From assembly GCA_964016885.1 (NCBI GenBank), contig OZ024766.1, positions 4,650,001 through 4,714,000 on the forward strand: a DNA stretch of 64,000 nt, read 5' to 3'. Shown piece after piece: positions 56,081 through 56,272 of this stretch. The stretch comes from Eledone cirrhosa. Taxonomy: Eukaryota. The translations under genes were made by a program, and so were the position numbers. Positions within the stretch are counted from its first letter, which is position 1; every line of letters begins with the position of its first letter. The notes below the pieces were generated by a model. It was not told where the DNA came from. It saw only the letters and a program-made list of their open reading frames with translations, and did no database searches.

Positions 56081-56272
56081 ATGAAAATGTATGACCCCGA
56101 CGGCAGAGCTCAAGCCGTTTCGACGGCTATTTCTGGACTGAAATAGCCGTCGAAACGGCTTGAGCTCTGCCGTCGGGGTCATACAATTTCCTATTACCCA
56201 CTCTACTACCCTAAGTATTGAGTACTCTGGTGCGTTATGGTCCATCTGGTTCCTTACCACAACTCCTTCGTT
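56081..56272 (+). mobile_element. Family-C HHR-derived palindromic element
   Basis: Centre GACGGCTATTTC tggact GAAATAGCCGTC then GAAACGGC..GCCGTC. Confidence 0.8.

What the first reader, a model, noticed from the sequence alone, without database searches (positions are those of the whole stretch)
56081..56193. Family C: ribozyme core repeatedly erased by palindrome perfection
Seen: three copies (8821, 56081, 59889) keep the 3' half of a hammerhead (GAA, stem III ACGGC/GCCGT, GUC, stem I), most clearly at 8821 and 56081. Where CUGANGA should lie there is instead an inverted copy of that 3' half. At 56081 the fold centre is a 12-bp stem-II-like hairpin. Private variants appear in both arms of each copy (gcg versus gag loop; tgac, taac and tatg stem variants). 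Inference: nested stems I and II form a quasi-palindrome that is perfected by template switching, independently per copy or by arm conversion, inactivating the ribozyme.
Basis: partly seen in the sequence, partly recalled or inferred. Interest (0 to 1): 0.75.

Follow-up and report, generated by a model that had tools for sequence, protein, structure and literature searches.

The report
Two-armed stubs of a Penelope retrotransposon
These small DNA hairpins are head-to-head stubs of a very abundant Penelope-like jumping gene, a layout already known for this group; each was likely built at insertion from two short copies of one RNA that stop before the first half of its ribozyme motif, not by later erasure of a working ribozyme.

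Summary
The three hairpins are real and belong to a genome-wide family (63,034 exact hits of a 17-mer). Long copies show the parent: a Penelope-like element with the motifs of the Hydra clade. Its end repeat holds a whole type I hammerhead motif, but with the known U3-A8 core, not CUGANGA (38 of 48 stretches U3/A8, none C3/G8). The window copies are the shortest form of the published layout 'inverted pLTR plus one-sided tail'. Of 82 sampled insertions, 66 had a visible partner arm and all 66 carry exactly one 80-nt tail; in 8 the partner is tail only. Arms pair by copy (13 of 16 long pairs), but shared variants are mostly subfamily marks, and rare mutations sit in one arm (16 of 17). So palindromes form per copy, most likely at insertion by priming from both sides of the cut, not by later perfection. 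Most arms stop about 60 nt upstream of the inner start, possibly the RNA's 5' end (untested). I found no paper with this mechanism, but the scan noted it before on other DNA (at least 6 genomes).

The parts
56083..56139 (-). Tail-less arm: inverted copy of the element's 3' end, from the inner start site (next to (TA)n) up to the hot-spot about 60 nt upstream, inside hammerhead stem II
   Evidence: coordinates against parent copy L224
56140..56193 (+). Tail-bearing arm: 3' strand of stem II, GAAA (56152-56155), stem III (56155-56173), C17 (56174), 3' strand of stem I (56175-56179), ending at the inner start site
56194..56273 (+). 80-nt tail, present on one arm only; in the parent it lies between the pLTR and the ORF
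56066..56082 (.). (TA)n target on the tail-less side
   Evidence: same in most of 38 short pairs
8821..8880 (-). Tail-less arm of copy 2, reaching the same hot-spot
8881..8887 (.). Junction: one extra base plus a short filler that repeats arm sequence
   Evidence: read by eye
8888..8936 (+). Tail-bearing arm of copy 2
8937..9016 (+). Tail of copy 2
59889..59937 (-). Tail-less arm of copy 3 (GAAA mutated); overlaps the other arm by about 4 nt
59934..59970 (+). Tail-bearing arm of copy 3; starts inside stem III, shorter than its partner; shares the rare gcg loop variant with it
59971..60050 (+). Tail of copy 3
39405..39450 (+). Diverged single tail-less stub of a related family between (TA) runs
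   Evidence: 81% over 32 nt

Best explanation
Each hairpin is a short head-to-head insertion of the 3' end repeat (pLTR) of a Penelope-like retrotransposon with Hydra-clade motifs, likely made at the moment of insertion by copying one RNA twice, from two fixed start sites 80 nt apart, onto the two cut strands of a (TA)n target. Shown: the parent (ORF, long 3' UTR, hammerhead motif with U3-A8 core, inner end, tail), the head-to-head layout, one tail per insertion, arms matching by copy, and a stop hot-spot 45-68 nt upstream of the inner end. Inferred: the element's enzyme cuts both strands; one end primes at the tail end, the other at the inner site; the tail-primed cDNA either stops early (tail-only arms, no palindrome) or runs on over the same stretch (overlapping arms, a palindrome); the two cDNA ends are joined with microhomology or filler. 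The 5' half of the ribozyme is missing because the copying never reached it. Inferred with less support: the hot-spot is the 5' end of the RNA, a transcription start inside stem II, so short stubs are complete run-off copies and long copies come from read-through RNAs.
For: Parent: L224 holds inverted pLTR with tail, a 5'-truncated tandem copy, pLTR-tail-ORF (786 codons open) and a 3' pLTR ending at the inner site; the model's best structural matches are telomerase RTs; Hydra motifs. One-tail rule: first 101 exact anchors on C1 = 82 insertions; 66 with partner, 66 of 66 one tail, 0 two, 0 none; 16 no partner seen (nine long or adjacent cases curated by hand). 19 of 20 further long, core-selected pairs have one tail, 1 is a complex duplication. 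Tail arm is shorter by 10 nt or more in 19 of 66 (8 of them tail only) and longer in 10: a tail-less strand cannot template a tail, nor a short strand a longer arm. One template: arms are sister rows in 13 of 16 long pairs; both arms long in 8 of 66 against 1.1 expected. No homogenisation: mean within-copy distance 2.3 of 46 nt, about the sum of each arm's distance to its nearest other copy, 1.0 + 1.4 (41 pairs); 16 of 17 rare variants in one arm. Hot-spot: 56 of 66 tail-less arms end at -40 to -75; the base before the hot-spot motif is non-T in 12,121 and T in 18,871 arms, while long copies have T or C only (14 of 14); among 100 listed non-T arms, those not explained by partner or parent were G 23, C 7, A 5 (by eye), as expected if a cap is copied (recalled signature). 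In vitro a PLE protein cuts and extends both strands and starts at two sites that bound the tail (PMC11167929, parts 1-2 read).
Against: No RNA data: no raw RNA reads were offered and the one RNA contig set gave no cover, so start site, cap and cleavage are untested. The extra-G signal is noisy: most of the 100 rows are explained by the partner arm and 9 single-base junction rows read G or C by strand. The TATA-like stretch 29 nt upstream overlaps stem II and differs between subfamilies. At least 1 of 41 short pairs has arms of two subfamilies and 3-4 more are ambiguous, so two RNAs are sometimes used; two RNAs from one source locus cannot be told from one RNA. The gcg variant in both arms at 59889, and 2 such pairs among the first 100 hits, exceed chance and could be occasional conversion. 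Sample comes from the first 15 Mb of one chromosome. Pfam gave 0 families for the ORF and no Hydra reference sequence was compared.
Confidence: 0.72

Rival explanations
1. Fold-back at insertion: one cDNA (or an antisense RNA) primes on itself and is copied back into a hairpin, and the endonuclease then trims one end to leave a one-sided tail (self-priming as proposed in PMC3846280; tail by resolution as in PMC8557442).
For: Explains arms matching by copy, correlated arm lengths and shared rare variants. Many junctions are near-palindromic.
Against: 8 of 66 partner arms are tail only and share no sequence with the other arm; in 19 of 66 the tail arm is the shorter one. Tail-less ends also close long tandem units (L224), so the inner site is a start site in its own right, as shown in vitro for another PLE (PMC11167929).
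Confidence: 0.14
2. Same two-sided insertion, but the stop about 60 nt upstream is a stall of the enzyme at the folded or protein-bound ribozyme (stem II), not the 5' end of the RNA.
For: The hot-spot lies in the inner loop and upper helix of stem II; some arms run 3-13 nt past the main stop.
Against: Independent stalls would not make both arms long or both short (8 against 1.1 expected); excess of extra G at the stop. This rival shares all other steps with the best explanation and only replaces the last one.
Confidence: 0.3
3. One reading: after insertion, nested stems I and II form a quasi-palindrome that template switching or arm conversion perfects, erasing the core copy by copy.
For: The parent's stem I can extend to the inner end, so the outer edge of such a quasi-palindrome would fall where the inverted arm ends. 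Rare variant in both arms at 59889 and in 1 of 17 sampled insertions.
Against: No parent sequence outside the inverted arm in the short pairs, only microsatellite in nearly all; long pairs keep the core on both arms; tail-only partners; arms diverge 0-4.9% within long copies and are not homogenised.
Confidence: 0.04
4. A MITE or other ready-made palindromic element that multiplies as a unit.
For: Short, high-copy, inverted arms, TA targets; one junction (the one at 56081) recurs, about a quarter of 100 listed arms.
Against: 36 distinct centres in 38 pairs; the recurring junction occurs in different subfamilies; arms group by copy, not side; continuous size series up to a full RT-endonuclease ORF; the tail lies outside the inverted repeat.
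Confidence: 0.03

Closest known systems
Hydra clade of C-terminal-endonuclease Penelope-like elements (PMC8557442, section 11 read)
   Same: RW(R/K), DKT, CxCX5C linker, no two cysteines between the GIY and YIG positions, CxxC and CxH around the conserved E and N, (TA)n targets, hammerhead in the pLTR; molluscs are among the reported hosts.
   Different: Core is U3-A8 with a long stem II and 5-bp stem III; tens of thousands of short stubs; unit about 3.1 kb; no tree against named Hydra families was made.
PLE insertion layout: partial tandem, inverted 5'-truncated pLTR, tail at one end (PMC8557442 Fig. 2 legend; PMC3846280 passages)
   Same: Head-to-head arms, one-sided tail, tandem pLTR-ORF-pLTR (L224), microhomology at inner junctions.
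   Different: Tail is 80 nt, not 30-40; here the one-tail rule is strict (66 of 66) and most insertions are only about 190 nt; those papers explain the inversion by self-priming and the tail by endonuclease resolution.
Poseidon element of Anolis in vitro (PMC11167929, parts 1-2 of 4 read)
   Same: Two RT start sites that bound the tail, AT-rich targets, both strands cut and extended, ribozyme cleavage not needed for insertion.
   Different: That text does not tie the two sites to the two arms of inverted insertions; different clade.
PLE hammerheads with U3-A8 core, Schistosoma Cercyon (PMC4209133, parts 1-2 of 4 read)
   Same: U3-A8 covariation, long helix II, palindromic loop 3, pairs of motifs close together on opposite strands, most motifs in truncated copies.
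   Different: Here helix III is a full 5 bp, and about four in five arms stop before the core.
LINE-1 twin priming (recalled, not from a call)
   Same: One RNA primed from both sides of the cut, giving an inverted 5' part.
   Different: In L1 the second priming is by chance annealing and the two parts do not overlap; here the second site is fixed and the arms overlap in 58 of 66.

Membership tests
Endonuclease-positive Penelope-like element | Single ORF with telomerase-like RT | tested here: met
   786 open codons in L224, RT motifs FD..Y and YRDD; top four Foldseek hits are TERTs, E 5e-8 to 1e-7. Pfam 0 families, PDB sequence searches nothing significant.
Endonuclease-positive Penelope-like element | C-terminal GIY-YIG endonuclease with conserved R, H, E, N | tested here: met
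   VIY..YIG at 659-675; Y660, Y673, G675, R684, H688, E743, N756 at least 95% conserved in 56 aligned proteins. By motif only; no profile hit.
Endonuclease-positive Penelope-like element | Partial tandem pLTRs, inverted 5'-truncated pLTR, tail at one end | tested here: met
   L224; 66 of 66 paired insertions. Tail 80 nt, longer than the published 30-40.
Endonuclease-positive Penelope-like element | Target-site duplication of variable length | tested here: inconclusive
   Targets are (TA)n on both sides, so a duplication cannot be read.
Hydra clade | RWK motif, DKT, CxCX5C linker, CxxC and CxH beside E and N | tested here: met
   R104-W105 (followed by R), D184-K185-T186, C639-x-C641-x5-C647, C737-C740, C765-x-H against PMC8557442 section 11.
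Hydra clade | CCHH finger absent | tested here: met
   One cysteine only between the GIY and YIG positions, not among the columns conserved at 95%.
Hydra clade | Insertion into (TA)n | tested here: met
   Flank of the tail-less end in 38 short pairs.
Hydra clade | Groups with Hydra families in an RT tree | not tested
   No named reference sequences were at hand.
Type I hammerhead ribozyme (parent copies) | Three stems around a core with 3-8 pair, G5, A6, A9, G10.1-C11.1, GAAA, UH | tested here: met
   48 distinct stretches: 38 U3/A8, 9 C3/A8, 1 U3/G8, 0 C3/G8; stems I and III 96-99% paired, stem II 82%; sister subfamily U3/A8 in 11 of 16.
Type I hammerhead ribozyme (parent copies) | Covariation support; Rfam match | tested here: inconclusive
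   3 pairs with double change, all from one sequence, not above shuffles (103 of 500); no Rfam hammerhead hit at L123; free fold of that copy z = +0.39.
Type I hammerhead ribozyme (parent copies) | Self-cleavage | not testable with these tools
   Needs an assay; no raw RNA reads.
Type I hammerhead ribozyme (window copies) | 5' half of the core present | tested here: not met
   All six arms stop 3' of the core.
MITE | Fixed internal sequence and terminal inverted repeats at both ends | tested here: not met
   36 centres in 38 pairs; tail outside the repeat; arms group by copy.

The most novel reading that the evidence does not exclude
Every insertion of this element is primed from both sides on one RNA, one arm from each of two fixed sites, which gives the strict one-tail rule; and the element starts transcription inside stem II of its own ribozyme, so the mRNA's 5' end holds only half a ribozyme and cannot self-cleave there, while tens of thousands of genomic stubs are complete run-off copies of that 5' end.
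Probability: 0.4. Interest if true: 0.55.

Novelty: new member of a known kind. Interest (0 to 1): 0.33.

Why it matters
How Penelope-like elements make their inverted repeats and one-sided tails is an open question: published accounts invoke self-priming and endonuclease resolution, and the one in vitro study did not address the inversion. A family with tens of thousands of two-armed insertions gives a large natural data set with a sharp rule (66 of 66 one tail; tail-only partners) and a defined 140-nt template for a direct test. It also warns that such hairpins can be misfiled as MITEs, microRNA precursors or decayed ribozymes. The element and its layout are of a known kind.

Tried and rejected
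Rfam over the window gave only sub-threshold microRNA-type matches to hairpins and microsatellites among the 150 of 515 rows listed; no hammerhead family matched a core-bearing copy. The repeat finder was swamped by microsatellites. A CUGANGA-based genome search gave 36 hits; the 30 examined were junction fillers or neighbouring elements. Pfam found nothing for the ORF and only weak unrelated hits for 6 homologues; precomputed PF26215 and PF28514 on homologues could not be named from the local copy. PDB sequence searches were empty. The protein Atlas gave no answer. Covariation in 19 hammerhead stretches did not beat shuffles. RNA evidence: 1 RNA run with a share of 0.05, no contig laid; a DNA contig set showed depth rising about 13-fold at the hot-spot and falling at the tail end, which agrees but is no copy number. 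Automatic chaining of long arms failed in nine loci and was corrected by hand. The sample is biased towards the query's own mutation and was not used for counts. Literature searches for the two-sided mechanism in PLEs listed nothing that states it by title or abstract start; most subscription papers are not in the library and no supplement was read (supplementary figures S1-S2 of PMC11167929 and S7-S8 of PMC8557442 may bear on start sites and clade).

Full report
Observation. At 56083-56190 two 51-bp arms enclose 6 nt and fold far better than 200 shuffles (z = -16.8). The right arm reads as the 3' half of a type I hammerhead and is followed by an 80-nt unique tail; the left arm is its inverted copy and abuts (TA)n. 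The '12-bp hairpin' is the inner part of this fold-back. The copy at 59889 lacks an intact GAAA on either arm.

A genome-wide family. The host genome has 3.0 Gb. A search with arm plus tail gave 470 candidates; 28 of the 40 scored had an inverted arm beside them. An exact 17-mer from stem III occurs 63,034 times, its reversed control never. The outer end of the inverted arm is fixed and the fold point varies, often with short fillers.

The parent. CUGANGA before stem II gave 36 hits; the 30 examined were fillers or other elements. Copies that extend further upstream (3,591 hits, 30 examined) run through an RT and endonuclease ORF and a long 3' UTR into a whole hammerhead motif. A pattern over its 5' half hits 5,937 places. 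In 48 distinct stretches from stored loci the core is U3/A8 in 38, C3/A8 in 9, U3/G8 in 1 and C3/G8 in none; a sister subfamily is U3/A8 in 11 of 16. U3-A8 is a published variant of PLE hammerheads (PMC4209133, parts 1-2 read). Stems I and III are 96-99% paired, but covariation does not beat shuffles, Rfam finds no hammerhead and activity is untested. Locus L224 is a complete insertion: inverted pLTR with tail, a 5'-truncated tandem copy, pLTR-tail-ORF of 786 open codons, 3' UTR and a last pLTR ending at the inner site. The predicted fold (pLDDT 86.8) matches telomerase RTs best. The protein has RW(R), DKT, a CxCX5C linker, no CCHH pair, and CxxC and CxH around E743 and N756, the marks of the Hydra clade, which targets (TA)n and is reported from molluscs (PMC8557442, passages and section 11). 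Pfam and PDB sequence searches were blank; 661 unnamed homologues exist. That the host is an octopus-like cephalopod is my impression from the repeat landscape and was not tested.

Anatomy of insertions. I fetched the surroundings of the first 100 anchor hits on C1, a sample blind to the tail; 101 anchors fell in 82 insertions. In 66 a partner arm faces the anchor arm head to head, and each of the 66 has exactly one tail; 16 showed no partner (nine long or adjacent cases curated by hand). Twenty further pairs chosen for a core or long arm gave 19 with one tail and one complex duplication. In 8 of 66 the partner is only a piece of tail, so there is no palindrome; the tail arm is shorter by 10 nt or more in 19 and longer in 10. 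Both arms stop before the core in 57 of 66; 56 tail-less arms end 40-75 nt upstream of the inner site; both arms are long in 8, against 1.1 expected. Centres differ: 36 strings in 38 short pairs.

Are arms converted? In 16 long pairs the arms are sister rows in 13 and unresolved in 3, never grouped by side; within-copy divergence is 0-4.9%. In 41 short pairs the mean within-copy distance (2.3 of 46 nt) is about the sum of each arm's distance to its nearest other copy (1.0 and 1.4) and below the between-copy mean of 4.9-5.2. The tgac, taac and tatg variants are subfamily marks. The gcg variant arises again and again (159 hits in both main subfamilies) and is in one arm in 16 of 17 insertions with a covering partner. 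The double case at 59889 is thus unusual; it fits a variant in the template RNA or rare conversion. One short pair has arms of two subfamilies and a few are ambiguous.

Mechanism. Shown: layout, one-tail rule, tail-only arms, per-copy junctions, the hot-spot. Inferred: both cut strands of a (TA)n target prime on one RNA, one at the tail end and one at the inner site; the tail-primed strand stops early or runs over the same stretch; the two ends are joined. This joins the in vitro findings of two start sites that bound the tail and of extension of both strands (PMC11167929, parts 1-2) to the published inverted layout (PMC3846280 passages; PMC8557442), which those papers ascribe to self-priming and endonuclease resolution. 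Fold-back alone cannot give tail-only arms or a tail on the shorter arm.

The hot-spot. The base just before it is T or C in long copies (14 of 14) but non-T in 12,121 of 30,992 arms genome-wide. Among 100 listed non-T arms of one subfamily group, those not explained by partner or parent were G 23, C 7, A 5, with 9 more rows a single base that reads G or C by strand (by eye). An extra G is what copying a cap leaves (recalled). With the linked arm lengths this points to a 5' end of the RNA inside stem II; a stall at the ribozyme remains open. PLE pLTRs are known to hold promoter activity or TATA/Inr-like motifs (PMC2377424 and PMC3846280 passages). No RNA data bear on it.

Novelty. Element type, layout, core variant and targets are known. 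The strict one-tail rule with tail-only partners, the 80-nt tail and the run-off reading were not found in my searches (listings only unless named above; PMC13282606 passages and part 1 of bioRxiv 10.64898/2026.07.22.740005 were read and do not treat it there). The scan has reached the two-sided reading in at least 6 genomes; those notes are not evidence. Verdict: new member of a known kind, with a useful large-sample test of an open mechanism; interest 0.33.

Noticed in passing
window 55950-56050 (+): A hammerhead motif of another family with a canonical C3-G8 core and long stem II lies about 40 nt left of the 56081 copy; a 35-bp-arm palindrome sits at 55824-55898.
   Followed up: no
window 56405-56570; relatives at 2549-2621, 10720-10900, 12387, 20115, 63727, 63914: A second fold-back family with a minimal C3-G8 hammerhead motif kept on one arm and its own tail, which shares a short motif with the Family C tail. 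Probably another PLE with the same layout.
   Followed up: partly
window 25366-25570: 102-bp-arm palindrome with a minimal U3-A8 hammerhead motif and palindromic loop 3 on both arms.
   Followed up: no
window 59710-59859: 31-bp inverted arms that hold the 5' half of a C3-G8 core, right beside the 59889 copy.
   Followed up: no
window 57705-58343: 285-bp inverted pair of a dispersed repeat separated by microsatellite.
   Followed up: no
L031, L047, L053, L033, L034, L040, L046, L050 near 1500: Family C arms joined head to head to pieces of other elements: another hammerhead-bearing end, GIY-YIG-like ORF pieces of other PLEs, and a CR1/L2-like 3' end (label recalled) with a filler copied from the Family C tail. 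Could be two-RNA insertions or insertions into older elements; sample was selected by a CUGANGA pattern.
   Followed up: partly
L140, L068, L236, L238, L271: A subfamily with a C3/A8 mismatch in the core is common (9 of 48 stretches), in line with the in vitro finding that cleavage is not needed for insertion.
   Followed up: partly
L227; L179 3456-3903: Larger inverted duplications that include flanking DNA and whole stubs.
   Followed up: no
L224 2979-3181: The reading frame is open from stem III through the tail into the ORF, 68 codons before the first Met.
   Followed up: no
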